A stretch of DNA of 63,992 bases, filler included, from Dimargaris cristalligena (Eukaryota), in assembly GCA_003614675.1 (NCBI GenBank). It is 10 parts of 10 records of this genome, joined end to end, with 100 filler letters (N's around TTAATTAATTAA, not from the genome) between each part and the next. Parts side by side here need not be neighbours in the genome. Positions count along the whole stretch, not along the records: positions 6,519 to 12,923 come from ML003521.1; 9 more parts are not named here. The stretch is one strand, 5' to 3'. The translations under genes were made by a program, and so were the position numbers. Within the stretch, counting starts at the first letter, position 1, and every line of letters starts with the position of its first letter. The notes under the pieces were generated by a model. It had not been told where the DNA came from, did no database searches, and saw nothing but the letters and a program-made list of their open reading frames with translations. This document shows, in pieces, positions 1-58,277 of this stretch.

Positions 1-798
1 CCACTAGAGTGTGCTGGTCGAATTGGTCAATCCGTAGGAACTGTTCCACCCATTTGTCACTAGGTTCAATGGCCGCCATACCCAAAAAATAGTCGTAGAC
101 CGGGGCGGATCGTTTGGGGCCAGAAGTACGTAGTCGGTTCACCACTGGCCCCATGCATTGGGCATCTTCCCCCGATAACAGGTAGTTGATTAACCGACGA
201 AAAATCTATCATTGAGAAATATAGTTATATATATATATATATATATAGATAGATAGATAGACGGGGGCAGGTATGAGTAAGAGAGTATGGGTCCCACTGT
301 ATGATATACCAGTATAAAAGTGGACTTTGGGGTACATATCCATGCAATGGAAGTCTCATGGATTAGTGCGGAATGAAACAAATAGCCATCGACTCTGCCA
401 CTTACATATTCGCTATCCTGCTGGCGCTGGGGTCTAGTGACAAACATAACCTTACCCGACTTTAGTGCTCCAAAGCGACCCTTAGAGGCGTCAAGTACGT
501 TGTGCAGGGACTGGTTAATAGCCTCACACGCAGTATCCGGCTGTTCCTCCGTTAGCAGATTCATATCCCCCCATGACATCGAAACCTCCGGGTCCACAGT
601 TTGGGTCGAGTGCCGCAACTTGCTAAATTGCCGGATAATTCGGACCATGCTGGACAGTGAGTCTCGCGACACAGAGGTATTATCCGCCGCAGTTTCAGGT
701 GCCGGCGAGTCAGGCGTGGAAACCGGATAGGCCTTGGTATTGAGTTGGCCGACACCTGCGATAGCCAAGGTGGTCATTATAATAGTAGATAGCCGCAT
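1..798 (-). CDS. Predicted secreted protein, paralog A (exon 1 798-406, intron 405-206, exon 2 205 to window start; 3'-truncated)
   Basis: ATG at 798 begins a hydrophobic signal-like N-terminus (MRLSTIIMTTLAIAGVG). The GTAAGT donor at 405 and AG acceptor at 207-206 join in frame to IFRRLINYLLSGEDAQCMGP. Paralog B at 3745-5218 has the same exon structure. Confidence 0.8.
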
Positions 799-3744: not shown

Positions 3745-5218
3745 TTAGTATCTTGGGAGGGGGTTGTTTCGGACCATCGCTAAACTTATTTTCTGGGCAT
3801 TCCCTAAAGCGCCGTGCACGGAGAGGGTTCTTTTAACAATGGCGTCCCAGTTAGTCATTCCCCCTGGCATTCCCCAATACTCCTTCGCCATACCATTAAT
3901 CGCCATCACCAGTATCTGGTCTACTGTCAGATGTTCGGCCTCAAGGCGCAGTACTTCTTTGGCGGACAGGGTCATCACACGATAGGGTACCGAGGAGGAG
4001 CCCAGGGCAGTGGTCATTTCATTCACAGATTCATCAATTAAGTGCCACTTTTGGTCCTCCGACATTTGGTCGATATCTGCCTTGGTATATTTCGCCCTGC
4101 CCCAGGATTCTCTTAAAACAGCGGGCTCACTATTTGGGGTATCGCTGGTGATGGGTGAGTCATCTAAAGCCGGAGGGTTCTGATCTTTGCGAAACTCACA
4201 TAACCTCTCTAGTACTTTCATGGCCCGGTCCTGTTTCCCGACTAAAAAGTTGAGAGGGTAGAATGCCTTCAGCCGAGCCACAGCGGCTTGATCACAACGC
4301 AATGCAGAGTACCGTAGTAATTCGTACAGGGTCTGGCGTAGGGCCACTTTTCGCCCCTCCCTCAGTTTGCCGGACTGGACAGCATTGTAAACGTCTTGGG
4401 TGAGCTCATGGATAGCTTCAGTTTGGGTACCAGTGCTATGAAGAGCTACCAAGGGATAGTCCACTAGAGTGTGCTGGTCGAATTGGTCAATCCGTAGGAA
4501 CTGTTCCACCCATTTGTCACTATGCCCAACGACTGCCATACCCAAAAAATAGTCGTAGACCGGGGCGGACCGTTTGGGGCCAGAAGTGCGCAATTGTTCG
4601 ACCACTGGCCCCATGCATTGGGCATCGTCCCCCGATATCAGGTAGTTCATTAGCCGACGAAAAATCTATCATTAAGAAATGCGGATATATATATATATAT
4701 ATAGGTAAATAGATAGGCGGGGGCAGGTATGATTGAGGGTATATTAATTCCATCGTACGGCGTATATTTAATCTAAATAATGGGCGTCGGAAGTCAACAC
4801 CGGTTTGTTGTAGTCACATGGTGTTAGGGTGCTATAAAGCATAGATATATACATTTCGACTTACATATTCACTATCGCCCTGGCGTTGGGCTTTATCGGG
4901 GACCTTGAAGAACGGCTTTAACAAAGCCTTAAAGGGACCTCTTGGGCCCTTAAGCACATTAGACAATGCTTGCTTAATGGCCTTGCACTTCGTGCCCGGC
5001 AGTTCCTCTGTTAGCGGATACATATCCTGCCGCAATACCAACTCCTCCGTATCCACATTTGGGGCGTTGGATGTCCGCGAGCCCTGCGGCACGGAGATTT
5101 CTTCCACCGCAGTTCCAGGTGCTGGTAAACTAGGCGTGGTATCCGAATTAACATTGTTATTGAGTTGGCAAAAACCTACGGCAACCAGAGTGGTCCCAAT
5201 CACTAAATGAAGTCGCAT
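3745..5218 (-). CDS. Predicted secreted protein, paralog B (exon 1 5218-4865, intron 4864-4666, exon 2 4665-3745)
   Basis: Signal-like N-terminus MRLHLVIGTTLVAVGFCQ. A GTAAGT donor follows ...DSEY, and the AG acceptor gives IFRRL-MNYL in frame with ORF 3745-4650. No recognisable domain. Confidence 0.8.
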
Positions 5219-6418
5219 GGTTAGTTTAAAGAATATTCGAGTGGAGTAGTGGGGAAAGGATTGGTTGAAGAGCTGAGTTTGGGGATTAGAAAAGACAGTT
5301 CAAAATAAATTTTGGTGTATATAACAGTATCCATGAACTGTGCGAATTGTTGAGTATCTAATAAAAAATAAAATAAAAGTCATGGACGTAGCAGGGGCGG
5401 AGTGGACCGTTTATAAAGGGCGTGGATTAAACGGCCTAGTTCCTGCGGCAGAAAGAAAGGGGTACAGTTTAAAACAAGCAGGTGACCTAGATTGGCTCAA
5501 AGGCCCAAGTTATTTTAAATGCCGTATGTGCATGATATACGAGTGGTGAAGGCACAGGCCAATCTGACTCGCTTCGCCAAACATCCAACGATCCACTAAA
5601 TAGTGCAGTATCATAGACAAGAATTAAAGGATACAGCAAATTGAAATCATTGGTATAATTTCCCAAGAGTCATGGTGATGTATTGGCTGGCCCCAGTTTT
5701 TGTATAATCAGGCCAGCGCACCTGGACTGGCTAGGTGCGGTGATTGTCCTTCCCACCCCTTCCCTTACCTACCGATTGTATTGGAGCGTCACGGCGGGGC
5801 TAACTTTAGAGCAAATTTGCATTTATATATTCATTCCTTTTAGTGGTACTCATGGTGAAGGTGCATTGGAACGTACCGATGGGGAATAGAAAAAAGGGTG
5901 AGGCTTTGGCCTTTACAATGTCCTATGGTCGGCCGATTCCCGCACTGAAAAACCGCTGATCCCACTACGTGCAAACTTGGCCTTAAGTCAACTCACCATG
6001 TTCACACGTAGCATTTATATATATATATAAATATATATATTATATTTATACAAATTATGCTCCGCCTAACGTTAACAATACTAAATTGCCGACCACAACT
6101 GGTCGACCATTTAAAGTATAATGTCCCAATAACTACACCAACCTCACTAGAGTATAATCTAAACTGTTTCTAAAAGGGGACTTCCGTAGGTACACCAGCC
6201 GTGACTCGTTGGTTCGTAAGCACCAGTTCATTTTCCGCTCGAGACGGCACTTTCGCTTATCTCCCCGTTGGTGATTAGCGCACTACGCCCTCTTTAAAAT
6301 AGTAGTATGGACTTGGCGGAAAGATTTGACACTAAAAATACCCATATTCACATTCCACATTCTTGGAATATCTTCTAGGTGAAAGCCGATTGGAACCGGA
6401 GGGAGGCTCTTGGATTCT

Positions 6419-6518
6419 NNNNNNNNNNNNNNNNNNNNNNNNNNNNNNNNNNNNNNNNNNNNTTAATTAATTAANNNNNNNNNNNNNNNNNNNNNNNNNN
6501 NNNNNNNNNNNNNNNNNN
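6419..6518. other. Artificial contig spacer
   Basis: N44-TTAATTAATTAA-N44. Confidence 0.99.
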
Positions 6519-6594
6519 ATGTAGTTTTAACTAGTAATATTGGCCGAATCTAATGGATTTTTCGTTATACAGCTTGGATGAACTTCTCTCATAT
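6519..6594 (-). mobile_element. Partial copy of ~145-bp MITE-like element, cut by contig start
   Basis: Reverse complement closely matches 19902-19975 (e.g. cgaaaaatccattagattcggccaatattactagttaaa). Confidence 0.75.
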
Positions 6595-9256: not shown

Positions 9257-10541
9257 TGATACCGTACTTTACGCCTCGATGCACCCTGACCATTATGTAT
9301 AACAACACTGCGGCCACTTGTGGCGCCTATCTCTCCGCTGGCGGTAAGTACCTCAACCGTGACCGTTCGTCAGCCTTGACATCCAACGGCCCTTATGACA
9401 GGCGACTCATGTGTCAAACCATACCCAATCCTACCATTATCCGAAATATTTTTATTTAAACTCATCAAAATTGACGTGTATATGTATGACTGACATGTCC
9501 TCAATTAACCCTTCACCAACCCCCAGATACTGTGTCACCGCCCTTTGTTACCCATAACTACGACAATCGGCAGGCCAAATTCACTCTAATTATGGTAAGT
9601 TAAGAGCTGGCCCGGGATCAATCCCTCAAATGCATGCAGTCTTGTTTAAAATCGGATGCGTTATTTGGATTAGGCCGGAACTAATACTTGGACAATCACG
9701 CTTATTAGGATGCTGTTCCCAACCTCCAAATCCAAACAAGCACCAACCAGGCAATTATGCATGTTTGTTATTTTTCTAAGGCATTGAAATTCCATCCCCA
9801 AGTTTCCCCTTTGCCGAGATCCTCTCGTTTCTAATTCTCTTTTTTACGACAACTATGATTGTGCCCCATTCCCCACCCTGACTCTAGGTTGACCCGGATA
9901 TGACATCTTCGAATGGTCGTTCCAGGACCGAATACCGCCACTGGGTTATAAAGAATATCCCTGGTAAGGACCCGTCCATGAGTTCAGAGGGGGGCAGCAC
10001 TGTTAACAAAACAAAAAGTGCCAATGTACGAGGGCTAGGGTTATGGCTATAACTAATCGGCGACCAGTGGTTCTATTCAAAATTGTTATATTTTTATTTT
10101 TCATACGTAGGTAACGATATCTCACAAGGAGAAGTGGTCACGGGCTACGAGGGAGTCAATCCCATCAGTGGAGGGGGGGCGCACCGGTACGTGTCTCTTC
10201 TTTACCGCGAGGCCTACGATACCCAGCACCGTAAGTACAATTATCTTACAGCACTGTCTGAAATTCAGCATACTACGTAATCTAACCATAATAGTATAGT
10301 TTTAGCAATGTATTCCTGAATACCTGAAGTTCATCATTTTATATTCTACAAATTCTGTATATTTTGCATTGCCCTACCCCCCTTCAATTGCCACGCCCCT
10401 TGTCTATGTAACCTACTGGATGTTTGCCAATGAGTAGGGGATTTACCAGACGAGCGACTCAACTTCGGTGCCAACGAATATGCCCTCGATGCCGGTCTAA
10501 CGCTGGTGGCGGCTGATTTTTTCAATTGCCATCATGCATAA
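9257..10541 (+). CDS. PEBP (phosphatidylethanolamine-binding / TFS1-RKIP family) protein; exons 9257-9343, 9527-9594, 9888-9963, 10111-10230, 10438-10541; first exon unresolved
   Basis: Five exons with phase-compatible GTAAG/AG sites splice to ...FTLIM-VDPDMTSSNGRSRTEYRHWVIKNIPG-NDISQGEVVTGYEGVNPISGGGAHRYVSLLY...LVAADFFNCHHA*. This carries the PEBP DPD, HW..NIPG and GxHRY motifs. Confidence 0.9.
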
Positions 10542-10801
10542 AAATGCGCGAGTCCATCACCCCAATTACAATTGAATATTAAGATTAAGTGCTCCGAGTT
10601 GCCCATTTCAATTTAAGGGAATAATACACATGCTGTGTATTTAAATAGGATTCCATGGTGTATGCTCAATGTGAGGTGTTGGGGAAGTGGTGTATTGTTT
10701 GGATGCTATTTATCCAGCTAAATACAATTTATTACGGGAGAGGGTGTTTAAGAGATTAACAAGGCTAGTCTAAGTGATCAGAGTTCATGGTGAGCAATTC
10801 G

Positions 10802-11563
10802 TTAGAGCCCTTGAATTCGCTTTCGGTTTCGTTTCCGAATACGCCTGCCTCGTTTTTTTGGAGGCGGTTGATCAGGACCAACCCCTCTAAGAGTAAGGGA
10901 AATGTCAGAAGGGGCACCCGGCTCATCTTCATCGCTCGAAGCAAGCTCCGACTCATCGCTGGCCAGCCGGGGATCTCGCCGCACTGCTCGCTGGGGAACC
11001 GGTACCGACACGGGTACGGATGGCACCTGTAAGGGGGGACGCTCATTCGCCATAGCTGCCAATGGTGAACTCAGCTGTAGTGGGGGTTTTAATGGAGCCA
11101 TCAACCCCGGGCGGATGAGGAAAACCTTGGCAAATTGTGTTAGTCAACTGTTCAAGGCGGCGATTATTTTTAACGGCTCGCAAAAGTATCTTGGGCCGGT
11201 AAGTATTTAGGTGTTAAGACAGATAGAACAATGTGAGGATGGGTATCTTTATATTAATTGCAGAACACGTGTATTTACCCAGGAAGGGGCCGGGGCTGGT
11301 ATATCAAATGGTGGTGGAAGGTTCATTTTGTTCATGAGGTGTAATACTTGGGTGTACAAAGCCGGGACCGCTGCAATGGAATGTATTATGTTGGTGAGGA
11401 TCATTGGGTTCGGTGGTGGGTATTGGTAGTAGTACATGGGGGCTGGAGGCCCTAATGGGGGACGGTACATCGGAGTACCCCGATCCGTGGGACCGGATGC
11501 GGATAAGGAGGGCTGGGCTCGCAGGCCAAGGTTATAACCGTTTGGTGGGATCCTGTTAGACAT
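10802..11563 (-). CDS. RNPC3: U11/U12-65K (RNPC3)-like protein, central region only, ~202 aa, no RRMs (exons 11563-11279, 11125-10802)
   Basis: YPPPNPMILTNIIHSIAAVPALYTQVLHLMNKMNLPPPF matches, from memory, the conserved inter-RRM block of RNPC3. It is followed by the acidic ASDESELASSDEDE and a basic NLS-like tail. The intron GTAAAT...CTAAC...AAG keeps the frame. Confidence 0.8.
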
Positions 11564-12174
11564 GGATACTAAGGAAACTAAAGGATAAAATACATTAAAT
11601 ATACGGAAGAGAAATGTTGGTATAATTCACGAATGGGGAATTTCAACGAGCTTAAGGGTGTATGTAATAGTGGGCCGCGTATTGCTACGCTACTGCAACT
11701 GTAGGGGGGAGGTGCCAATTGCCCAGACGACTAAGCGGTCACCTGACCCTTCAAATGAACAATACGCCGCCAAGAAAGCGGAGAGCAGTTACTAGCCCCG
11801 TCGGTCTTATCGAACAAATCGGGGTATAAATTCGGAATTAATATATACCATCCCAGTTAAATCACTTCTTAATAAAAACCTAGTTATTTACCCCAAAATT
11901 TGCCTATCTAACTAAATACACCCTACTTGGTACATTCGGTAATTCTTGGTCTCCCTCGGCCTGAGTGTAGCACTAAGCACCACCATCAATCTCTTTTTTT
12001 CTATCCTAAGATTAGAACAAATGGCATGGCACCAAATTAACCTGGTTTGACCAAGTAAAATTGTATAGTCAATCACTCACACTAAAAACATGTCCCATAG
12101 TTAAGCACATTTATACACTGGCCTATTACATTCCATACCATCCTGTAATAATAAGGCTTAGAGGTCAGTCAGGT

Positions 12175-12724
12175 TGTTGACCCACCTAGTCCATCCTAAA
12201 TATGGAAAGCTGATTGTCCTATCCTATCCAGCCTTATAATGCCATATTACCCCTCCCTTAACTATATTACTTACTATGACTAGGTCCTAATGCTTCTTAC
12301 ACCACACTCCACTGGCTAATCCAATGTTCCTCCTTTCCCAGTAGAGTCTTCTGGAAGCAAGCCCCTAGCTAAGACCCCATCCCCCACCTCTTTATCTAAT
12401 CATCCCATTCTCTTAAGGACCTCTTGTTACAAATGGTCCCTGCATATAAATAACTGGGCCCCTCTGGGACTAGTTCAGTTAGTAGCTTATTCTTATCCCC
12501 CTCAGTTTACTCAATAAACTCTATATATGCTCACCTGCCCTTGTACTGACCAGTAAGTGTGTACTGCTGCACATCCCTTACATAGTTGCTGCACTTGCCC
12601 TTATTGGGTTAGTACCACCCTGTACCTGACACCAGTAGCTGCTTGGCTAAGCCTAAGCCCACCTACCATTAGAAGCCTACCCCTGGGACTCTTGACAGAC
12701 TAAGAGTAGATAACCCAGGTGATA
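12175..12724 (+). mobile_element. Solo LTR (550 bp) with 5-bp target-site duplication CAGGT
   Basis: CAGGT at 12170-12174 and 12725-12729. Termini TGTTG...TGATA are consistent with decayed TGTCG...CGACA. Internal TATAAA and AATAAA are present. Homologs lie at 27216, 32330 and 51306. Confidence 0.8.
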
Positions 12725-12860
12725 CAGGTTAATCTATACTGAAGGTTTTCTCATGACATTTTGCCCAGAGGAGCTAAAGTGCCCATTATGGTTCTAGAGT
12801 AGTAAAAGGGTATCAATAGCTAGTCATACTAAAATACCTAAGCAGGGGGGTGATATTATT

Positions 12861-12923
12861 GGTATCTGTAAAGAACTGAAATCAAATCCTTGAAAACTGA
12901 ACTTTATTTGAAAAGATAGATAA
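12861..12923 (+). repeat. Second dispersed repeat, cut by contig end
   Basis: tgtaaagaact...aaaactgaactttatttgaaaagatag recurs as a reverse complement at ~51990-52045. Confidence 0.65.
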
Positions 12924-13023
12924 NNNNNNNNNNNNNNNNNNNNNNNNNNNNNNNNNNNNNNNNNNNNTTAATTAATTAANNNNNNNNNNNNNNNNNNNNN
13001 NNNNNNNNNNNNNNNNNNNNNNN
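12924..13023. other. Artificial contig spacer
   Basis: N44-TTAATTAATTAA-N44. Confidence 0.99.
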
Positions 13024-19417: not shown

Positions 19418-19517
19418 NNNNNNNNNNNNNNNNNNNNNNNNNNNNNNNNNNNNNNNNNNNNTTAATTAATTAANNNNNNNNNNNNNNNNNNNNNNNNNNN
19501 NNNNNNNNNNNNNNNNN
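19418..19517. other. Artificial contig spacer
   Basis: N44-TTAATTAATTAA-N44. Confidence 0.99.
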
Positions 19518-19901: not shown

Positions 19902-20045
19902 ATATGGAAGAAGCTCATCCAAGCTATATAACGAAAAATCCATTAGATTCGGCCAATATTACTAGTTAAAAATAATTTTCCCATATATTCTCCCATACAC
20001 GTATAACGTAAACCCTTTTATAGCTGGGCTGAATTTCACTCATAT
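19902..20045 (+). mobile_element. Full-length ~145-bp MITE-like element
   Basis: Imperfect ~30-bp terminal inverted repeats: left ATATGGAAGAAGCTCATCCAAGCTATATAA, right (reverse complement) ATATGAGTGAAATTCAGCCCAGCTATAAAA. Five other copies occur in the window. Confidence 0.75.
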
Positions 20046-26180: not shown

Positions 26181-26323
26181 ATATGGGAGGGATTCAGCCA
26201 GGCTATATAACGAAAAAGCCTTAGGATGAGGCAAGCATTACTAGTTGAAAATTGATATCCCCCTTTTGACCCATCTACATAGTTTGCTAAACCTTACAAA
26301 ACTGGGCTGAATTTCGCTCATAT
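26181..26323 (+). mobile_element. MITE-like element copy
   Basis: atatgggagggattcagccaggctatataacgaaaaa...actgggctgaatttcgctcatat, collinear with 19902-20045. Confidence 0.75.
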
Positions 26324-38967: not shown

Positions 38968-40335
38968 ACTAATAATAATATATTAAAAATAAAAAAAAAT
39001 ATAAAATAAACTTTATAAATTAATTTTTCATATTTTAAAAATTTTTTTTATAAAAAAAATTTTTTTTTTCAGCAAATAATAAAGTTTAAAGAGGGCCCTA
39101 TAAATTAAAAACTAAATATTATAAACTTAAATAATATTACAAAAAATAAAATCATCAAAATAATTTTATATAATAAAATTTAAATTATTAATAATATAAA
39201 ATAAAATTATAAAAAAAAATATTCATTTATAAAAAATTAATACTAAAAATAAAAAATAAAATAATAAATTTTTTTTATAAATAATTTCATTAGATAATTT
39301 TACTATTTTTAACAATTAAAAATAACAATTTATTATTTTTTATTTAAAGTAAAATAAATTATTCAATAAATTAAAAGAAAAAAAAAAGAATAAAAAAAAA
39401 ATAAAATAAAAAAAAATAAATATTTAATTTAAATACAATAAAAAAAAATAAAAAAACAAAATATTTAATTTATAAGTCATAAATAAAATAAAGTAAGATA
39501 TAATTACAAAAAAAATAAAGATTATCCAACTCAATTCTAAGTTATATTTTTCAACAAAAATTTATGTAATTACTTATTTATTAATTGATAATAGCAACTA
39601 AACCAAAACTAGAAAAAAATATACAAATAAATAATTTAATTTCTTCTAATAAAAAATTATTTGTACATAATCTAATAATAGAACCATCCCAATAATAATT
39701 ATCCATTATCTAATAAACCAAAATTCCCTATGGAAAGTTTTCATATTAATTTAATATTAGTAAAAATAATTTTAATTTTTGTTTCATTAAAATTAATATA
39801 CCATGATGTATATAATTAAATAATAAATAGAAAAATCTTTATAACAAACCAATATAAAGTTAGTTCTACTTATAATTTTTTAGAATATAATGTAAGAGAA
39901 GTAAAAGTACAAATAGAAAAATATATAACTTTTTTAAGATATTAAAAATATCTTCAATATTTTTAAAAATAAAAGTAAACTCTATTTAATAATTAGAACT
40001 AATATAAGTTAAATTTAAGAAAATATTTCAACATCATAGATACTTAATTAAAATCTTTTATAGAATCGAAGTAACACAATACTTAGATAAAGATTTAAAA
40101 TTTAAAAGAGAATTACTAGAAACTTATATTTCCTTAAATATTAAACCTTTATTAAAAAATACTAATAATATTGAAAAAATAAATATAACTCTAAAATACT
40201 CAATTTTAATTAAAAAAAGAACACCTATAACTAAAGACTGAATATTAATATTATAAACCCAAATTAAACTTAAAATAACAAACTTATAATAATAATTTCC
40301 TACCTTATAATAAAAATAAATAACAAATAAAACTG
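38968..40335 (-). ncRNA. nad5 intron 3 (after CDS nt 717), putative group I, runs off contig
   Basis: Follows exon ...GAG GGT (U-ending). The expected nad5 continuation PTPVSAL is absent, and a LAGLIDADG remnant lies inside. Confidence 0.7.
39500..40330 (-). pseudogene. Decayed LAGLIDADG homing endonuclease ORF in nad5 intron 3 (boundaries approximate)
   Basis: GILVY*IMDNYYWDGSIIRLCTNNFLLEEIKL (~39730-39635) resembles the LAxWIMDDG...LxTxxF..EE..L motif, with TAG replacing Trp. Confidence 0.6.
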
Positions 40336-43095
40336 ACCCTCCCGGGTTAAGGGCATTTATGGGATCCTAAAAATTTAATTTCTATAAACATTTTCAATGT
40401 AATTTTTAATTTTAAAACAATAACCATTTATTCATCAAAGAAAAATAATATATTTATTTCATAATAAATTAAAAAAATATTACAAAAATCTTTTAAAATA
40501 GAATTACCCATTCCGTGACTTATCATATTTTATATTTTCAGTCACTAAGCTTGCCTTTTCATTTAAAGTAATCGTTATACCAACAATCTGCTGTATTTTA
40601 GCGATTACACCACTTTCATGGCTGCCAGAGCACACCTTAACCGATAGTTTCTAAGGAAAATTAATCCTCACCGTCTCCTCTTCGGAGTCACTACGGCCAA
40701 ATCCATCTGCTCGTTGCTCTTTTCCAATAAATTCAAAACACATCTATAATGTGTCTTTAAAGATAATAAAATATTATCTTCAAATTATTAGGTTAGATCC
40801 GCGATTACCCATTTCCTATTACTAGGCTATACTATTTAAAATATATAATTTTTTTCTATTTATAATAATACTATAATGAAACCAATATTAAAATAATATT
40901 TTAGCTTTTATAATTAATATTATATATCAAAGAAACAAATTCAAAAGAATCTTTAAAATTAATTTATAGTACAATCCTCATACTTATTACATCTTACCAA
41001 ATTAATATATATATTTAAAATTGGACTTACCGTATTCATTACAATACGCCGCCTTAAAACTTTTCATTTAAGGTTTAGTATATGAGGCTTTAGGGGATAC
41101 CCGGAGTTTGGATTTGTATAGACCAATCCCCTCTTGCTTAAGGAGGGATAAATCGCATTAGGTAACCAAATATGTAATGGCATCTGTGCACTTTTTGCCA
41201 TAGCTCCTATTAATAATAATAAACAAATAATTAAAATAGCATTACTATTAATAATTGGAGTCATTGAAAAAATTGTTGAAAAATCTAAATTACCAAAAGT
41301 TAAAAACATAAAAAAAAGTCCTAAACTAAATCCTAAATCACCTACTCTATTAACTAATATAGCTTGAATTGCTGCTTTATTAGCTTGTAATCTTCTAAAC
41401 CAAAAATTGATTAATAAATAACTGCAAATACCAACACCTTCCCACTTTATTATTATTAAAAAGATTTTTTTTTTTAGCCATTAACTATATTTGAATTTAA
41501 AGTAATAGATAGTAATTATAAAAAAAAGATAAGTGGATATAAAAGAAAAGGGAATTAAGAATAAAAAAAAAAGAACACGAAATCCAAGATTGAAAAATAA
41601 AAATTTGAAATATAAACTAAAATTAAAATAAATATGTTAATTAATTTTATAAGACATAGAAAAATGTATATAAGAAGATGTTAATAATTTAATTTTGACT
41701 AATTCTCGTTTTGATATCAAAATTACCCATTGTTTAGATCTTCTCAATATAACCTTTCATACCATATTAAATTTTTTTCTTAAAACTGAAGCTAATAATT
41801 CAACTTTTACTCATTTCGTAAATCTTAATATGTAATAATAACTCTCCCCGAAAATTTCTCCTACCATAATCCATAATCCAAAAAACTAAACCAACATTAA
41901 TTAATAATTTCTTAATGTTTTAAGAAATAATTTAAAATTTATTAGGATAAAATAATTCATGATACTTATTAAAATAAGGAAAAGCTAATGTTTTAAAAAT
42001 TAAACTATCGTAAATCAAATCAATTTTTTTATCTAGTTTCCAATTAGTAAAAGTAGGAGATATTCCAATAAAAGGTTCAAATAAGCTGTATAGATAATAT
42101 AAGTAATCTGAATATTTATAATGTATTTCAGCACAAACTAATCTAGTATAACCATTAGCCTTTTATCAATTGACATAAACATTTTTTAAAATTAATCCAA
42201 TTAATGCTTCTTCTAAAAACAAAATTAATTTCATATATTGTTTATAAAATTTAGAATATTTAAGATTTTTTAGATTTATAAATATAATAGAACCATTTCC
42301 ACCAGAAGTTGTATTCATATTTAAAAAATTATAAAAACAAATAAACATCAGCATCCTAAAATATAAAATATAAAATATTATTAAATTCAAAAAAAAATCT
42401 ACTAATAATAAAAATTTCCCCACTTAACTTATTTAAGAAAAGGGAGGTTATATAAGGATTATAAATCAAAAATCACTATAGCGATTTTTTATCATGTTTA
42501 ATCTCTGAGGAAATAATTAATTAAACCCTAAAGCAACGCTTTGGACTTCCAACTTATATCCTGCTGATTACCCTTTATACCTAAAAGAGTTCAACAAAGT
42601 TAAACTTTTTTTAAGGGTGTTCCAGCAAATAATGATTATTTTAAAAATTTATGAATGCATAATTCCATAGGCCGGGCAACCTACAAATAAAATAAGAAAA
42701 TTATTAGCTGTAACTAAAAGAATCATAAAAAAAGTAAATAATGATAAATAAGAAAAAAATCTTGGGATATGTGCATCATTTGACATATATCCTATAGAAT
42801 AAAGATGTACACATGAAGATACATAAATAACAGGAATTAACATAGATACAGTTAAACTATCTAATTGAAAACTCCAAGATAATTGTATACTTTCTGAATC
42901 TAACCAATTAAATAATACTATGGATAATGGTGACTCATTAAGACCAACCTCTATAAACGAGATAGTAACTAAAATAGCAGTAAAGCAAATAAAAAAGCAA
43001 CTCAAAAATTTTACTCCTGAAAGACCTATAGATCTAGCAGAAAATCCAGAGATAATAGCACTTATTAAAGGGAGAAATATAATAGTTAAATACAT
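40336..43095 (-). CDS. nad5: NADH dehydrogenase subunit 5, 5' part (exons 43095-42679, 41444-41152, 40342-40336)
   Basis: [10 protein letters not shown]...DSLTVSML...[14 protein letters not shown]...LFVG | [15 protein letters not shown]...NRVGD...[19 protein letters not shown] | EG. Cumulative exon lengths are 417, 710 and 717 nt. Confidence 0.95.
40343..41151 (-). ncRNA. nad5 intron 2 (after CDS nt 710), group I, 809 nt, no ORF evident
   Basis: Upstream exon ends in U and the intron ends in G. GC-richer core segments: ccaaactccggg, ggtaatcgcggatct, gagcaacgagcagatgg, aaggtgtgctct. Confidence 0.8.
41445..42678 (-). ncRNA. nad5 intron 1 (after CDS nt 417), group I, 1234 nt
   Basis: Exon ends GGU and the intron ends in G. 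P/Q/R/S-like elements: atttgctggaa, aatcagcagg, tcagagatta, aaatatagtt. Confidence 0.85.
41700..42423 (-). pseudogene. Decayed LAGLIDADG homing endonuclease ORF in nad5 intron 1 (boundaries approximate)
   Basis: EEALIGLIL... interrupted by TGA-TAA, then [18 protein letters not shown] and [10 protein letters not shown]-like segments across frameshifts. Confidence 0.65.
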
Positions 43096-45343
43096 AAATT
43101 AATCATAATAAAAAATTTTTTTTCAAACTTCATTATTCTATTAAAAAATTAACCACCACTCTTTAAGGTAGTATAATTAAATATATTACATAAATATATA
43201 AAGAAAAATATATCTCCCACTAAAAAAAAATTAAGTGGGAGATCTCAATAATTATTAATATTTAAATATCTTTAAGCATAAATCAAAAATTTTTTTTCCT
43301 AAAAAAAGAAATATTTTTCACATACATCTTAAAAAATGATCGAAGATCAAGGTATACAAGTCTTTTAAGTATTTAAAAAAAATTATTTTTTTTATTAATT
43401 ATTTGTTTATAACAAAAATAAAAAAATTTTTTTATAATCTAACTTAAATATTAAATTAAAAAATTTTATATTAATTTAATATATTATCAATTATATTTTT
43501 AATCACTAAAAATCATTTATATCTCCTATAAATAAAATTATTAAATTTATTTTATATTATATTATATTATATTATATTATATTTAAAATTAATATATCAT
43601 TATTTAAATAATTTATATAATTTAAAATATCTTAACTTACTTACGTAAGCTGATATTATAAATTATATTATAAATTATAAAATAATTACTTAAAAATAAA
43701 AAATAACTTAAAATATGTTATACACATTATTAAAATTTAAAATAAAAAAAAAATTAAATATTATTATTATATATTAAATAATATTAAAATATAACTTATT
43801 ATAAAAATTATTAAAATTATAAAAAATATTAAATAATTTATATCTAAAATATAATTAATATAAATAAATTATTTATAACATAATAAAGTTATACTTATTT
43901 ATAATTAAATATAATTTATAAAAATAATTACTATATTAAAAATAAAATAATTTTATATGTTATATATCTAATTTTCAGTAATAAATATTAAATAAATTAT
44001 TAATAAAATTAATACAATTTGTACTAAAGATAAAACTTTATAATAATTATAAATTTAAATTAAAAATATAATATAATATTATTATTATAAATAGTAAAAT
44101 ATAATTTATTAAAATAATAAAAATAATTATAATATTTTTAATAAAATAATTTTATATATTTAATTAATAATTATAAATATAATTTATATAATTAATTTAA
44201 TTATATTTATATAATTTAATTAAAGAAACAATTTCATTGTAAAAAAAAATATTAATTTGAAATATTATATAATATAATTTCAGTAAATAATTAAATTCAA
44301 TTAATAAGAATAATAAAAATAATTATAATATTAAAAATATAAAAATTTTGTATATTATTAATTTATTTTATAGTAACAAATATAATTTTTATAATTATTT
44401 TATAATTTTTCTTATTTAAAATCTTTTTATATAATTTAGTTATAATTATTAAATTTCAAATAAATCTATAATTAAAAATAAAAAAATAAATATATATATA
44501 TCTAATAAAAATTAATAATTTTTATTTAAAAATATAAGAATAAATACTATAAAGATTAAAAAAACTATTTAAAATTTTTTATTATTTTTTTTTATATAGA
44601 AATTTTTAAAATATTTAAAATATTTCAAAAGTTTTAAAAAATCTATCTACATTGATTAAATTGATTATAAAAAGAAATTAAAAAATAATATTAAATTTAT
44701 AACCTTTATAATATTCATTAAAATAAGCACTAAAATTAATAACTAAACCAATATATAAATTATCATTTTAAATACAATATATATTATAATATATTTTAAA
44801 AAGTAAGGGAAAAGAATATTAAGTATAAAAAATTATATATTTAAATAAAAAAGATTATTAATAATAATTTATAATTCTATAATATCAATATCATTATAAT
44901 TAAAATAATCATTTCCACTATCATTATTACTATCAAAAGGAAAATAATTAAAATTATAAAAAATATCAAAATCACCATTTTTCATTAAATTATTTACTAT
45001 TAAAATAATTTGAATATTAATACCATATTATTTAAGAACTAAAAAAAAATTTTTTACAATAAAAATATCATTACTATAAAAATAAAGAAAAATAATATTA
45101 TCATAATAATTATAATATAAATTTAAAAATAAATATAATAACTATTCTAGAAAAATATATTATATAACATTATTATTAATATCTCTTAAAAAAATTCTAA
45201 AATTCTTATTTATTAAAAATAATAATAAATATAAATTATATAACAAATTTATAAAATAAAGATAACCTATTCCAATAAAACCACTACTTAAAATAGTTAT
45301 ATTATATAAATTATTAATTAAAGTAACAGCATTAATTATATCT

Positions 45344-53431: not shown

Positions 53432-56400
53432 TTAAAGGAGAGATAGTTCAAGAAGACATTCTTTCCAATGAGAAGTAAAAATTCTAATGGAATCAGCTCG
53501 AAACTGTTTCGTATTGAAATTGGTAACAATTTCCAATCCCTCAGTGGTGTTCCAGGCTCCAAAATCGAACAAATACGGATACTTGTTTTGACTCTTGGCA
53601 GCGCGCAAATCATTAAGCAGGGCGGGCCGCTCAATCAAGAGTAGCTCACTGGCATAGGAGTCATGGACGGAGAAATCATCCAAATATGTGAAACCGAATT
53701 GGGGCTGAACATCAAATTGGCGCTGTAGGTCGGCTTGATCCTCGGTGAAGGAGCGTAGGTTTTTGACTACTGTATATAGGAAACCGTTATCTACGCCCGC
53801 GCCTAGCGTATTTTGAACGCTACGTAGGGTGCTTATCAAATCATTATTGGGTGCACCCTGGAAAATTAATGGGAACTGACAAGCAAAGAATCCGACAGTC
53901 CGAGAGACATCGCACTGGCCACGGGGGTCCTTGCGCCCATGGCCTAGATACGCCAAATCCATTTGGGACAGTCCGAAGTGACGGTGGTAGGCGCATACCA
54001 GGGTCGTCAAAATAAGTTCAACTGGGGTGGCCCCGAGTCGTTGAGCTACCGTGGTCATGATGTGGTGAGTGGTTTTCTGATCAATCAAGTCAGCCACGCG
54101 TTCCCGGGTTTCGTTGGTAATAGGTAAATAATCTGTAGGAAGCTCTAAAGACAGAGAATTGGCGGATATGGGTAAATCAACGCTGCACAGGTCAATAGAC
54201 TGGGCCAGGGACCAGAGGTGGTCAGCCCACGCCTTATACGAAAGGGACAGGGGCTCGAGAGGCTGGCCAGTTAAGAAGGCTGAAAAGTCTTCCCGGACAA
54301 TCTGGACGGACAAATAATCAAAGACCAGATGGTGGACGGAAATATAGACGTATTGGGCACCGTTAATGTCGAATACCCGAATCTGGGAGATCGGACCAAC
54401 CTCGAAATTAATCTGATGGTTAATGCCGTTGAGTTGGGCCAGTGCATCTCGGATATTACCCATCTTGCGATATTCAAAACAGGTCGTCAATGAGTCATCC
54501 AAATCAGCAAACTTGATGACCGTTTCCCCATCGATAGACAGGAAGCGGGCCCGGAGCATATCGTGGCGCTGAACCACCTTGGTCCAGGCGGCCTGCCACT
54601 GTTGAGCGGTGAATCGCGTGCTCGATTCAAATAGAGTGGCTAGGGGGAAGAAATGGGGATCAGCCAGTTGGAGGGCGAGTAGTTCGAGTTGGGGTGGGGT
54701 GAGTCGCACTATCCGAGTTTCCGAATCAGCGGGGCCATAGGCGTCCCCATTAAGCAATATAATAGAATCGGGCGGAGTCAAGGCTAATTGGACCAGATAG
54801 GCAATCGTGTTGGACCGGTTGATATCCATCAGGGTCAGCTGCAGGTTCTGGCGACGACAGCGGGATACCAATTGGATGGCCGACAGTGAGTTACCACCTA
54901 CTTGGAAAAAGGTGGCCGCGGGTGAGATAGCGCCCGGGTCAATCCGAAGAGTTTCGGCGACCAGCCCAATAAGCTGGGCCTCGGCTGGGCTAACCTGCAC
55001 GGTCTCATGATTGTTGCCACTGACTGTAAAATTGTGTTTGGACAGGGCCTTGCGATCCACTTTACCCACCCGGGTCAGCGGAAATTCGGTTAGTTCGACC
55101 AGAACAGACGGTATCATATAGTGAGGCAGCCGAGACCGCAGAGAGTCCAAAATAGTGGCGACCTGACCAGAAGGGGGAACAATATAACCGACCAAGTGGG
55201 TATCGTCCTGAACCACAGTGCAGGCCTGGTTCACGGCGGGATGCAGCTCCAGGGCACTCTCTACTTCCCCCAGTTCAATCCGGAACCCTCGCAACTTCAC
55301 CTGGTTATCAATGCGTCCGAGACATTCAATCTGACCATTGGGTAGCCAACGGGCCAGGTCACCGGACTGGTAGATGCGCTCATCCGTAAACGGACTCAAA
55401 ATGAATTTGTCTTGGGTAAGTTCAGGGCGGTTGAGATAGCCACGGGCCACGCCGCGACCGCCTAAATAGAGCTGGCCTACGGTACCAACAGGGACAGGGC
55501 GCATGTAGGTATCTAGAATAATGCCAGTGGCATTAGGTAGCGGGACGCCAATGGGAATCACTGAACTGGTGGACTGGAGTCGAGTCCAGTGGGATCCACA
55601 CGCCACTTCGGTGGGACCGTACCAGTTGATGAGCTCAACCGAATCGGCCCATTTATTCACTACCCCCTGGTTGGCCGGCTCACCAGTTATAATGACTTGG
55701 CGCAAGTTGGGGAAATTGGTTGGATCGAAACTGGAGAGTAGGGAAGGGGTGCAGCAGGCTCGCGTAGCATGAGCAAGGGTAATTTCGTACTCGCCTTGAT
55801 TAACCAAAAGGGTACCGCCGAAGGACAGCGTGGTCCATATTTCAGATAGAGATACGTCGAAGGTGGGAGTAACGAGAGTGGGGGTAACGGTGCCGGGGGC
55901 CATGTTTGTAATACTGCCCATGCCCCGCCAGTGGTTGGCCAGAGCGTGGTGTTCGTGCATAACGCCCTTGGGGGTACCAGTCGAACCCGACGTGTAGATA
56001 ATTGCTGCCAAATGGGAGGGATCAATGGCCGGCGACGGGTATGCGCTAGTCGGCCCATCGGCAAATAGTGCTGCACTGTTAATTGGTACCATAGGTATAG
56101 TCAACCCGAGAGAGCCTAATGCCGAAAGGTGGGATGGCTTGCCCATAACGACGATTGCTTGTGTGTCTTCTAAGATTAGTTGATGGCGCTCAAGTGGGTA
56201 GTCGGGGGCCAGAATCACAAATGCACAGCCGGTCTTCCAGATGGCCAGTTGTCCTACAATGAGTTCTAGACTGTTGTCAACGACCAGGGCCACTATCTGG
56301 TCAGTGTCACAAGGTGCTTTCAGGGCCAGCGAGTGGGCCAGCCGATTGGTAGCCGTATCCAGCTGAGCGTAAGTGTAGTGTTGGCCATTGTAGGTGAGGG

Positions 56401-58277
56401 CTGTAAGGCGAGGTGCATTCTCGCATTGTTGTTTGAATAGGTCGTGGGCCAGGACTCGGGGGGTATCGTGTGGGTTAGTGGCCCAACTTGACAGCAGTTG
56501 TTCGCGCTCAGCTAAAGTGAGAATCTGGATACTTGTAAGTGGGCTACTGGCATCCACTGACACTAGAGACGATAAAGCGGCAATAAAGTGGTCAGTAAAT
56601 GAGTTAATAAAATCAGGACTAAAATCCAATGTCCGATAGGATACTCGGAATTGAAGCTGGTCTCCTTGAGCATGAGCAATAACCGCGAGCGGGAAGTCCG
56701 TGGGATCCCAGAAGCTGTCCAGTTCCATTTGGAAAGGAAGCTTTGGATTTGTGGGTGTTTCAGGGTAGTTTTCCAGCACCAGAAGGGTGTTGAATAGTGG
56801 ACGCTCTTGCCCAAGACCGCTCCAGCGATGAATGTCAGTCAGCCGACAGTGTTCGAAGCCGTGGGCCTGGGTGCTCGTCGCGTACACGGCCTGTAGAATA
56901 TCCCCCACAGAAGGGTTGCTGCCCAGTGCCACTCGGCAGGGAATGGTATTGATACATGCACCGATAATGTTTTCGACACCTTCCACAGGGACATTCCGAC
57001 CCGAGACGACCACACCAAAGACCGGGTCAGTAGATCCGGTGTGGTGCTGAAGTACAGCCGCCATTGCCACCCGTAGCAGGGTTGAAAGGGTAACCCCGTG
57101 GTCGCTGGTTAGTCTATTGATCTGTTCGAGAATATGCACAGACTTTTCCACAGCTCCATAAAATGAAGCGTCGCTAGGTCGCAGATCGGGGAAAGTAGGG
57201 TGGTGATAGTGCGGCTGTACTAGTAAACACGGTTCCTCAACTCCGGAGAACTGATGAGTCCAGAACTGCTCGGCCGCACTGGTATCCTGGTCCCCAATAT
57301 GGTCGACGAAATCACGGTACTGTACCGCTGTAGGAAGCGTGTCCCCGATGTAGTTACTGCATACACTATGGAGTAATAGCCCGATGGACCAACCATCCAC
57401 CAAAGCATGGTGAACCGAAATCATCAATTTAAACAAATCAGGGGCCGTACGGCAAAAACCGAACCGGATCCAGGGCCGGTCGGGGGTGAACCCAGTAGTC
57501 CGCTCTTCTTCGAAGAATTGGTCACGCATAGTGTCAACATGGCCTTTTTCCCAGCTTCGAATGAGCCAATGGGCATTAAAATTTTTAGTCACGACCTGAA
57601 GGTTCTTGTTAGCGTCACACCCACTGGCCATTAAGAAGCGAGTACGAAGGATGGAGTGGTCATGGGCAGTTTGTTCCCAGGCTCGATGGAAACGGCCGAC
57701 ATTGAGCTGACCTTTAATAGTGAATCCCAGTTGGACCATGTAAGCGGCCGGGTCCTGAAGTGTGGCAAACAGTAGGCCTTCCTGAACGGGTAGGCAAGGG
57801 TAAATGTCCTCGATATCGACCAAGGCCAAGTCCAGTAAGGGTAGGTCGCCCTGGACCAACTTGCAAAAATCGGATTCGGCTAGTCCGGCGGAGGAAAAGT
57901 CGCTGGCTGTTACGATAGATGGTGCGGGAACGGTCTTGCATTCGAGAATGAGCTCCTCAAGAGAAGTGCGCCACTGATCAACTACTCGTTGGATGGTACT
58001 TAAACAGTGTAGTTGGTTGGAGTATATTACACTTAGCACGAGGCCTTCGTCGACACTGTAATCACAAGCCACACTGAGCACTCGACTGAATACTTCATCT
58101 TTGTTCCAGGCATCGGTCCATCCCATTTCAATGTGATGAGGGCGCCAAAAGGCATCCTGGGCCTCTAGTTGCTCGAAGCGACCCGAGTAATTAAACGTAA
58201 TACAGTTCCAGTCAGCTGAACGAATCCTAACCGCTTCTGGGGCCGTTCTGTCGATGGATGGTGTTGATAAGGGAAAA
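53432..58277 (-). CDS. Non-ribosomal peptide synthetase, 3' part: (E end)-C-A-T-E/C; 5'-truncated
   Basis: Frame is open to the contig edge. E-domain end and linker FNYSGRFEQ and TASDF. C domain IEDIYPCLPVQEG and HHALVDGWS. A domain YTSGSTGTPKG, YGPTE, SGDLARW, GRIDNQVKLRGFRIELGEVE and GKVDRKAL. T domain FFQVGGNSL. Terminal domain HHLVFD, GHGR, RTVGFF. Confidence 0.95.

What the first reader, a model, noticed from the sequence alone, without database searches (positions are those of the whole stretch)
10802..11563. Minor-spliceosome 65K (RNPC3)-like gene lacking both RRMs
Seen: a two-exon ~202-aa ORF containing YPPP...ILTNI...VPALYTQVLHLMNKMNLPPPF, an acidic SDESE...SSDEDE patch and a basic tail. 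The stop lies only ~260 bp from the convergent PEBP stop, leaving little room for a C-terminal RRM. I see no RRM exon upstream before the CpG-free/LTR tract. Known: canonical 65K has two RRMs; the C-terminal one binds the U12 snRNA 3' stem-loop and the N-terminal half contacts U11-59K. Inference: this is either a fissioned 65K with the RRM supplied by another gene (RBM41-like), or a repurposed relic that outlived the minor spliceosome. All spliceosomal introns modelled in the window look U2-type.
Basis: partly seen in the sequence, partly recalled or inferred. Interest (0 to 1): 0.78.

Follow-up and report, generated by a model that had tools for sequence, protein, structure and literature searches.

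The report
Trimmed 65K (RNPC3) gene without RRMs
A small, unannotated fungal gene keeps only the middle "docking" piece of the minor-spliceosome protein 65K/RNPC3; its U12-RNA-binding end is certainly missing, but the short DNA piece it lies on cannot show whether its front RNA-binding domain is missing too.

Summary
A two-exon, 202-aa minus-strand ORF (11563-11279, 11125-10802) matches the central region of U11/U12-65K (RNPC3) proteins (best E 1e-14 for exon 1; 2e-28 for the spliced protein in a local blastp). It keeps all 16 invariant core residues.

The window is not one locus. It is ten ~6.4-kb contigs joined by N44-TTAATTAATTAA-N44 linkers. The gene's contig is 6519-12923 and ends 1,360 bp upstream of the ATG, inside a CpG-free, LTR-like tract. 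One other contig is 97% identical at protein level to Dimargaris cristalligena (Kickxellomycotina).

Family profiles find no 65K-type RRM anywhere in the window. The same method found RRM2 exons in 24 of 25 control loci. Loss of the C-terminal, U12-binding RRM is solid: stop codon, AATAAA, and a convergent PEBP gene 260 bp away. It has precedent, because Basidiobolus, Syncephalis, Absidia and other zygomycete 65K models also end after the acidic/basic patch.

Loss of the N-terminal RRM is unproven. 146 of 150 homologues have it, and the contig ends too soon.

The retained core folds as one confident helix. This is probably the segment predicted in human to dock on PDCD7/ZMAT5 in U11 snRNP. Whether this genome has a minor spliceosome could not be tested.

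The parts
11279..11563 (-). Exon 1 (95 aa). Residues 1-38 are a disordered linker. The conserved 65K core follows.
   Evidence: Translation. Hits to RNPC3/65K. In-frame stop 21 codons upstream of the ATG (ORF 11249-11626).
11300..11434 (-). Coding region for the conserved core (residues 44-88: YYYQYPPP...VLHLMNKMNLPPPFDI). It is predicted to form one helix (53-79) flanked by proline motifs.
   Evidence: All 16 invariant columns of the 36-sequence alignment A1 are kept. AlphaFold2 gives helix 53-79 with block pLDDT 92-95.
11126..11278 (-). Intron of 153 nt: GTAAAT donor, CTAAC branch-like motif about 15 nt before the AG. It looks U2-type.
   Evidence: Read. Exon 1's frame stops inside it. Homology continues in another frame after it.
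10802..11125 (-). Exon 2 (107 aa plus TAA stop): variable proline-rich spacer, acidic patch, basic tail.
   Evidence: Translation. It matches positions 6-52 of the 65K C-terminal profile at E 0.002 and nothing beyond.
10922..10981 (-). Acidic patch RRDPRLASDESELASSDEDE, colinear with the K/R-rich then DELLASDESE(L/I)ES block of 65K proteins.
   Evidence: Weak tblastn matches (E 0.03-1.7) of 10 of the 12 full-length 65K queries to 10978/10981-10919/10928. Alignment.
10817..10858 (-). Basic tail KKRGRRIRKRNRKR, NLS-like (inference).
   Evidence: Canonical 65K has a basic patch at the same place (profile consensus).
10728..10733 (-). AATAAA poly(A)-signal-like hexamer about 69 nt after the stop.
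   Evidence: Read from the sequence.
10434..10541 (+). Last exon and stop of the convergent PEBP-like gene. It closes off the 3' side of the 65K-like gene.
   Evidence: ORF. Pfam PBP matches to the two upstream exons.
11960..12923 (.). CpG-free, LTR-like tract running to the contig end. CpG o/e is 0.28 in the 11919-12118 window and 0.00 from 12119 on. It holds TATAAATA followed by AATAAA on the + strand.
   Evidence: CpG profile. Sequence. Not repeated elsewhere in the window. 'LTR' is inferred, not proven.
12924..13023 (.). Artificial linker (N44-TTAATTAATTAA-N44) between two unrelated contigs. It is not an assembly gap within a locus.
   Evidence: Nine identical linkers split the window into pieces of 6418, 6405, 6394, 6387, 6385, 6378, 6376, 6369, 6365 and 5615 bp.

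Best explanation
This is a real, intact but unannotated descendant of the U11/U12-65K (RNPC3) gene in a Dimargaris-like zygomycete. As modelled, it encodes a ~22-kDa protein that has shed both RRMs. It keeps three things: the central proline-flanked amphipathic helix, the acidic SDESE patch and a basic NLS-like tail. The retained helix is most likely the element that docks 65K onto the U11 snRNP; in human it is predicted to form a composite domain with PDCD7/59K and ZMAT5/20K. The protein would therefore still sit in a reduced U11 or U11/U12 particle as a structural subunit. It could not itself bind the U12 or U6atac 3' stem-loop. Shown here: homology, exon structure, absence of RRM2 from the gene, absence of any RRM on the contig, and a confident helix. 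Inferred: the ATG at 11563 is the true start, the gene is expressed, it binds PDCD7/ZMAT5, and a minor spliceosome exists in this organism.
For: Exon 1 matches 65K proteins (best E 1e-14; 375 hits). The spliced protein aligns colinearly across linker, core, acidic patch and basic patch (blastp E 2e-28 and 7e-28). All 16 invariant core positions are kept, which argues for continuing purifying selection. Splice sites are canonical, and homology lies on both sides of the intron. The stop codon, an AATAAA about 69 nt later, and a convergent PEBP gene 260 bp away leave no room for RRM2. Family profiles built from 106 full-length 65K proteins were searched against all 2,628 six-frame ORFs of the window. 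They found no RRM1 (best E 11) and no RRM2; only exon 2 matched, at C-profile positions 6-52. The same procedure found RRM2 exons in 24 of 25 control loci. An ATG sits at the start of the homologous region, with an in-frame stop 21 codons upstream. The three introns read on this contig are about 150-210 nt, so an RRM1 exon more than 1.36 kb away would be unusual. AlphaFold2 gives residues 1-26 disordered and helix 53-79 at pLDDT 92-95. The bioRxiv preprint 10.1101/2023.12.22.573053 (passages read) reports an AF2 high-confidence interface of human RNPC3 175-190 (143-192 modelled) with PDCD7 415-450 and ZMAT5. Precedents exist. Single-RRM, RRM2-less 65K models occur in Basidiobolus (2), Syncephalis (2) and Absidia (2), confirmed by Pfam; an Rhizopus model tested alongside them does carry a C-terminal RRM. 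The same architecture appears, by my profiles only, in a third Absidia, Halteromyces, Chlamydoabsidia, Gongronella and Lichtheimia. A 299-aa Calcarisporiella model has no RRM at all.
Against: 146 of 150 homologues with at least 99 residues before the core carry RRM1, so a form lacking RRM1 is rare. The contig ends 1,360 bp upstream of the ATG inside an LTR-like repeat, so upstream exons cannot be excluded. The ATG context is poor (T at -3). The pyrimidine-rich TTTTATCCTTTAG/TTTCCTTAG just upstream could be a 3' splice site. No transcript evidence could be obtained. No predicted protein in two very large collections contains this exon (0 hits at E<=1e-30). No Kickxellomycotina protein appears among the 120 listed hits (about a third of them unnamed) or the 20 looked up, 11 of which carried an organism name. 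At least 7 Kickxellomycotina proteomes are in the collection, so orthologues in sister species are unconfirmed. That human residues 143-192 are this same core rests on position and my recollection of the human sequence, not on a call. Taxonomic assignment was tested only for a different contig of the window.
Confidence: 0.45

Rival explanations
1. The gene model is incomplete at its 5' end. One or more RRM1-coding exons lie beyond the LTR-like element and the contig end. The real protein would then have the Basidiobolus/Syncephalis architecture: RRM1, core and acidic/basic tail, with no RRM2.
For: RRM1 is present in 146 of 150 homologues with a long enough N-terminus. The nearest phylum-mates with models (Syncephalis, Basidiobolus) have exactly this architecture. 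The contig ends 1.36 kb upstream in a repeat. A splice-acceptor-like pyrimidine/AG stretch and a weak start context sit directly before the ATG.
Against: It needs an intron longer than 1.36 kb that holds a retroelement, in a contig whose introns are about 150-210 nt. An in-frame stop lies 21 codons upstream, and the ATG falls exactly where homology starts. No protein with this core at high identity, whole or partial, exists in the collections.
Confidence: 0.28
2. The gene is a non-functional remnant. A 65K gene was recently truncated by the LTR-element insertion or another rearrangement, or by a chimeric join in a fragmented assembly, and it has not yet accumulated disabling mutations.
For: An LTR-like tract lies about 400 bp upstream of the ATG. 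The gene is unannotated and has no detected orthologue in related proteomes. The assembly is highly fragmented, with contigs of about 6.4 kb.
Against: Both exons are open, splice signals are canonical, and there is a poly(A)-like signal. All 16 invariant core residues are kept. Lack of RRM2 cannot be explained by an upstream insertion, and it is shared with other zygomycetes.
Confidence: 0.15
3. The gene is a repurposed relic. The lineage has lost the minor spliceosome, and the helix module survives because it was recruited to another complex.
For: No Kickxellomycotina 65K appears among the listed or looked-up hits. No minor snRNA and no convincing U12-type intron was found in the 64 kb at hand. 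PMC10639083 (passages) infers pronounced minor-intron loss in the Zoopagomycota ancestor.
Against: 64 kb is far too little to judge. The core is 76-88% identical to chytrid and blastoclad 65K and keeps every invariant residue, which is what continued binding to the same partners would give. The per-species tables of the surveys are supplements I could not open.
Confidence: 0.12

Closest known systems
Canonical U11/U12-65K (RNPC3 / SNRNP65) of animals, plants, chytrids and Glomeromycota
   Same: Central YPPP...VLHLMNKMNLPPPF core with all invariant residues. The same order of linker, core, acidic SDESE patch and basic patch.
   Different: The window protein has no N-terminal RRM on the available DNA and no C-terminal U12/U6atac-binding RRM. 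It is 202 aa against about 430-530 aa.
RRM2-less 65K gene models of zygomycetes: Basidiobolus ranarum and B. meristosporus (256/258 aa), Syncephalis (320/328 aa), Absidia, Halteromyces, Chlamydoabsidia, Gongronella, Lichtheimia (207-264 aa)
   Same: The protein ends shortly after the acidic/basic patch, with no C-terminal RRM.
   Different: All of these keep RRM1 (Pfam RRM_1 in the six such models tested). The window gene shows none. These are database gene models whose 3' ends I could not verify.
Calcarisporiella thermophila VTP21DRAFT_4611 (P0027, 299 aa)
   Same: Core plus acidic/basic patch, and no RRM by Pfam or by the family profiles.
   Different: It has a 135-aa proline-rich N-terminus with no counterpart here. 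It belongs to a different phylum (Mucoromycota). The model is unverified.
RBM41 (paralogue of the 65K C-terminal RRM; PMC11039992, passages read)
   Same: It belongs to the same minor-spliceosome protein family and is a possible in-trans supplier of the missing RRM.
   Different: RBM41 shares only the C-terminal RRM with 65K and has an unrelated N-terminus. The window protein has the opposite part.

Membership tests
U11/U12-65K (RNPC3) | Conserved central core (YPPP ... VLHLMNKMNLPPPF) between the two RRMs | tested here: met
   Best E 1e-14. 375 hits. All 16 invariant columns kept.
U11/U12-65K (RNPC3) | Acidic SDESE patch followed by a basic patch after the core | tested here: met
   Exon 2 matches C-profile positions 6-52 at E 0.002. 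Alignment.
U11/U12-65K (RNPC3) | N-terminal RRM | tested here: inconclusive
   No match in any of 2,628 six-frame ORFs (best E 11), nor by tblastn with 12 full-length 65K proteins. However, only 1,360 bp upstream are available before the contig ends. The method recovered RRM1 in only 6-7 of 15 control loci with more than 600 bp of upstream flank.
U11/U12-65K (RNPC3) | C-terminal RRM with N-terminal extension that binds the U12/U6atac 3' stem-loop | tested here: not met
   A stop codon and a convergent gene lie 260 bp away. No RRM2 match anywhere in the window. The same method found RRM2 in 24 of 25 control loci.
U11/U12-65K (RNPC3) | Binding to U11-59K (PDCD7) and residence in the U11/U12 di-snRNP | not testable with these tools
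   No PDCD7 or ZMAT5 sequence of this organism was available. Only the helix prediction and the human AF2 report bear on this.
U11/U12-65K (RNPC3) | Co-occurrence with minor snRNAs and U12-type introns in the genome | not testable with these tools
   The genome is not held. Within the 64-kb window there were 0 Rfam hits and one chance-level U12-like candidate.
RBM41 | 65K-type C-terminal RRM | tested here: not met
   No RRM in the gene or the window.

The most novel reading that the evidence does not exclude
The central helix module is the only indispensable part of 65K. In this fungus it would exist as a free-standing ~22-kDa protein without any RRM. In several other zygomycetes, including Basidiobolus (the fungus richest in U12 introns), it would lack the U12-binding RRM. 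These minor spliceosomes would then join U11 to U12 in a way different from the textbook 48K-59K-65K-U12 snRNA chain.
Probability: 0.3. Interest if true: 0.7.

Novelty: new variant of a known kind. Interest (0 to 1): 0.5.

Why it matters
In the accepted model, 65K is the bridge of the U11/U12 di-snRNP. Its N-terminal half holds U11-59K and its C-terminal RRM holds U12 snRNA. A natural 65K reduced to the docking helix would show which part of the protein is truly essential. So would the wider set of RRM2-less fungal 65K models, if they are real. Together they would point to an alternative way of coupling U11 and U12 in fungi. The case also flags a conserved, Pfam-less module that gene callers missed here. 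In addition, this window is a concatenation of contigs, so apparent gene neighbourhoods across the linkers are not real.

Tried and rejected
- Own genome: not held. I therefore could not search for PDCD7, ZMAT5, SNRNP25/35/48, ZCRB1, RBM41, a second 65K copy or minor snRNAs.
- RNA evidence: no RNA holder was listed for 10560-11700.
- Pfam on both exons: 0 families.
- PDB sequences with exon 1: 0 at E<=10.
- ESM Atlas: no usable hit.
- Rfam on the whole window: 0 at gathering threshold.
- U12-intron pattern scan: 17 5'ss-like sites and 1 full candidate (47026-46794, minus). That is at or below my rough by-hand chance estimate of a few (no shuffle was run), and there is no coding support. Rejected.
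- RRM2-directed protein search (P0222 residues 98-212, proteins of 119-380 aa): 10 hits among only 62 candidates, none fungal. This is uninformative on fission. The query turned out not to be fungal.
- Metagenome loci with the core (25 loci): none is a close relative, best about 60-67% identity over 50-60 aa. They were used only as a positive control.
- Earlier-findings look-ups: nothing relevant.
- Benecke et al. 2005 (PMC1201347) is not held. The 59K-binding statement is taken from passages of PMC11039992 and of the U11 snRNP preprint.
- Literature searches found no paper on RRM-less fungal 65K or on Dimargaris/Kickxellomycotina minor splicing. The per-species supplementary tables of PMC10639083 and PMC11347168, which may list this species, were closed.
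- Fold search was not run, because the model is a single helix with disordered flanks.
- Complex prediction was not used, because no partner sequence was available.

Full report
**What is in the sequence**

On the minus strand there is an ATG at 11563. It opens a 95-codon exon ending at 11279. A 153-nt intron follows (11278-11126), with a GTAAAT donor and a CTAAC motif about 15 nt before the AG. A second exon (11125-10802) encodes 107 residues plus a TAA stop. Exon 1's own frame runs into a stop inside the intron.

The stop codon is 260 bp from the stop of a convergent PEBP-like gene. That gene's exons give Pfam PBP matches at E 4e-4 and 9e-3. An AATAAA lies about 69 nt after the stop on the gene's strand.

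**The window is not one locus**

All nine N stretches have the same form: 44 N, TTAATTAATTAA, 44 N. They cut the window into pieces of 6418, 6405, 6394, 6387, 6385, 6378, 6376, 6369, 6365 and 5615 bp. This is a list of small contigs in order of size, glued by three-frame stop linkers.

The gene's contig is 6519-12923. The AAA-ATPase after 13024 lies on another contig and is not a neighbour.

A trehalose-synthase ORF on the next contig is 97% identical to a partial Dimargaris cristalligena protein. That protein is recorded on a 6,394-bp contig, which is exactly the length of that window piece. The assembly is therefore most likely D. cristalligena or a very near relative (Kickxellomycotina, Zoopagomycota). 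I tested this only for that contig, not for the one carrying the gene.

**Homology**

- Exon 1 has no Pfam family and no relative among PDB chains.
- It matches 266 of 326 candidate proteins at E<=1e-3. The best is 1.0e-14, to a chytrid protein named RNA-binding region-containing protein 3. Others in the list are named U11/U12-65K, RNPC3 or RBM40, from chytrids, Blastocladiomycota, Mucoro-, Glomero- and Zoopagomycota, plants and insects.
- An exhaustive phmmer run gave 375 hits at E<=1e-3, 47 at <=1e-10 and none at <=1e-30. I set aside its top row, P0123, a 2,759-aa proline-rich protein matched in 12 stretches.
- The lack of any hit at <=1e-30 means the gene itself is not among the predicted proteins of either collection, so it is unannotated.
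- The spliced protein was joined only inside scripts. It aligns colinearly with 65K proteins through the pre-core linker, the core, the acidic block RRDPRLASDESELASSDEDE and a basic patch. Local blastp gave E 2e-28 and 7e-28.
- In a 36-sequence alignment all 16 invariant columns are kept in the window protein.

**Are there RRMs?**

I built two profiles from 106 full-length 65K proteins. One covers everything before the core (RRM1 plus linker, 144 positions). The other covers everything after it (acidic/basic region, linker and RRM2, 287 positions).

I searched both against all 2,628 six-frame ORFs of at least 15 aa in the window:
- The N-terminal profile found nothing better than E 11.
- The C-terminal profile hit only exon 2, at positions 6-52 (E 0.002). 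It found nothing for RRM2.
- tblastn with 12 full-length 65K proteins agreed.

As a control, I ran the same procedure on 25 metagenomic loci that contain the core. RRM2 exons were found in 24 of 25. RRM1 was found upstream in only 6-7 of the 15 loci with more than 600 bp of upstream flank; the misses were intron-rich genes whose core is itself split.

The genes read on this contig have exons of roughly 100-320 nt and introns of about 150-210 nt. An RRM1 within reach should therefore have been seen.

**What the two ends mean**

The 3' end is firm. The stop codon, the poly(A)-like signal and a convergent gene 260 bp away leave no room for RRM2, and no RRM2-like ORF lies anywhere on the contig. 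This gene does not encode the U12/U6atac-binding RRM.

That loss is not unique. By my profiles, 36 of 146 homologues with RRM1 and the core lack RRM2. Some of those are fragments. They also include complete-looking models that end 38-130 residues after the core:
- Basidiobolus ranarum and B. meristosporus
- two Syncephalis species
- three Absidia species
- Halteromyces, Chlamydoabsidia, Gongronella and Lichtheimia

Pfam finds a single N-terminal RRM in the six RRM2-less models tested (two Basidiobolus, two Syncephalis, two Absidia). A seventh model in the same call, from Rhizopus, gave one RRM_1 match, at its C-terminus.

B. meristosporus is reported to have the highest minor-intron density known in fungi (0.554%, n=249; PMC10639083, passages). 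If those models are right, losing RRM2 does not mean losing the minor spliceosome.

The 5' end is not firm.

For absence of RRM1:
- The ATG sits where homology begins, and an in-frame stop lies 21 codons upstream.
- About 400 bp of CpG-normal unique sequence follow upstream. Then comes a tract with CpG o/e 0.28 (11919-12118) and 0.00 from 12119 to the contig end.
- That tract carries TATAAATA followed by AATAAA, like a retroelement LTR.
- No RRM1-like ORF occurs in those 1,360 bp.

Against absence of RRM1:
- 146 of 150 homologues that start with Met and have at least 99 residues before the core carry RRM1.
- The ATG context is weak, and TTTTATCCTTTAG/TTTCCTTAG directly upstream could be an acceptor.
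- The contig stops inside a repeat.
- One database model, from Calcarisporiella thermophila (299 aa), has the core and no RRM at all. This is a possible second RRM-less case, but it is unverified.

**How it probably works**

AlphaFold2 on exon 1, using the 36-row alignment, gives a disordered N-terminus (residues 1-26, pLDDT below 50). It also gives one long helix, residues 53-79, with block pLDDT of 92-95, flanked by the YPPP and NLPPPF proline motifs.

The U11 snRNP cryo-EM preprint (10.1101/2023.12.22.573053, passages) reports a high-confidence AF2 interface. It joins a disordered region of human RNPC3 (residues 175-190; 143-192 modelled), PDCD7 415-450 and ZMAT5, and it is consistent with fuzzy density on U11.

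PMC11039992 (passages) restates two points. The 65K N-terminal part binds 59K, and the C-terminal RRM binds the U12 and U6atac 3' stem-loops.

That the human segment is the same conserved core is my inference. It rests on its position between RRM1 and the acidic patch and on my recollection of the human sequence; no call shows it.

On this reading, the window gene keeps the U11-docking module and nuclear-targeting charge patches and has dropped RNA binding. The perfect conservation of the core fits continued binding to the same partners better than a long-orphaned relic.

**What could not be settled**

- The genome is not held. I could not look for PDCD7, ZMAT5, other minor-spliceosome proteins, RBM41, a stand-alone RRM or the minor snRNAs.
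- No RNA run was listed.
- Within the 64 kb there are no Rfam hits and only one chance-level U12-like intron candidate.
- The RRM2-directed search returned 10 proteins, none fungal, from only 62 candidates.
- No Kickxellomycotina protein appears among the 120 listed hits (about a third of them unnamed) or the 20 looked up, 11 of which carried an organism name. At least seven Kickxellomycotina proteomes are in the collection. Orthologues in sister species are therefore absent, unannotated or ranked lower.
- Four literature searches found nothing on RRM-less fungal 65K or on minor splicing in this group.

**Verdict**

The claim 'lacks the C-terminal RRM' is established. The claim 'lacks both RRMs' is the more likely reading but is not proven.

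My probabilities:
- 0.45: intact RRM-less docking subunit.
- 0.28: 5'-incomplete model with RRM1 off the contig.
- 0.15: fresh non-functional remnant.
- 0.12: repurposed relic in a lineage without minor splicing.

It is a new variant of a known protein. It is of moderate interest in itself, and more so together with the RRM2-less 65K models across zygomycetes.

Noticed in passing
window 6419-6518, 12924-13023, 19418-19517 and six more: The window is an artificial concatenation of ten contigs (6418 down to 6365 bp, the last cut at 5615). They are joined by identical N44-TTAATTAATTAA-N44 linkers. Any gene neighbourhood read across a linker is not real.
   Followed up: yes
proteins P0034, P0040, P0008, P0014, P0033, P0081, P0096, P0024, P0064, P0148, P0152: Annotated 65K/RNPC3 homologues of Basidiobolus, Syncephalis, Absidia, Halteromyces, Chlamydoabsidia, Gongronella and Lichtheimia have RRM1, the core and the acidic/basic tail but no C-terminal RRM. 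The Absidia, Halteromyces and Chlamydoabsidia models end at the same alignment position. The Rhizopus protein continues from that position into RRM2, so an unpredicted intron there is an alternative to true loss.
   Followed up: partly
protein P0027 (Calcarisporiella thermophila, 299 aa): A database model with the 65K core and acidic/basic patch but no RRM by Pfam or by the family profiles. It is a possible second RRM-less 65K.
   Followed up: partly
window 38968-45343: A contig with 16-23% G+C carries nad5-like ORFs (Proton_antipo_N at E 6e-19, Proton_antipo_M at E 4e-25). It is probably a mitochondrial fragment rather than a RIP-type AT-rich block.
   Followed up: partly
window 53432-58277 (minus): A 1,614-aa open frame with Condensation, AMP-binding and PP-binding domains: a non-ribosomal peptide synthetase module. 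It fills most of its contig and runs into the linker at the contig's high-coordinate end.
   Followed up: no
window 11960-12923: About 900 bp with no CpG at all at 35-49% G+C, holding TATAAATA followed about 70 nt later by AATAAA. It is LTR-like and lies at the contig end. It is not repeated elsewhere in the window.
   Followed up: partly
window 1-301 / 4461-4757 and 1941-2003 / 6356-6418: The first contig holds direct repeats 4.4-4.5 kb apart (81-90% identical). This suggests a tandem duplication or a retroelement with terminal repeats.
   Followed up: no
window 6522-6594, 19902-19982, 26181-26261: A short dispersed repeat (73-81 nt, 74-93% identical) occurs within about 400 bp of the starts of three different contigs.
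   Followed up: no
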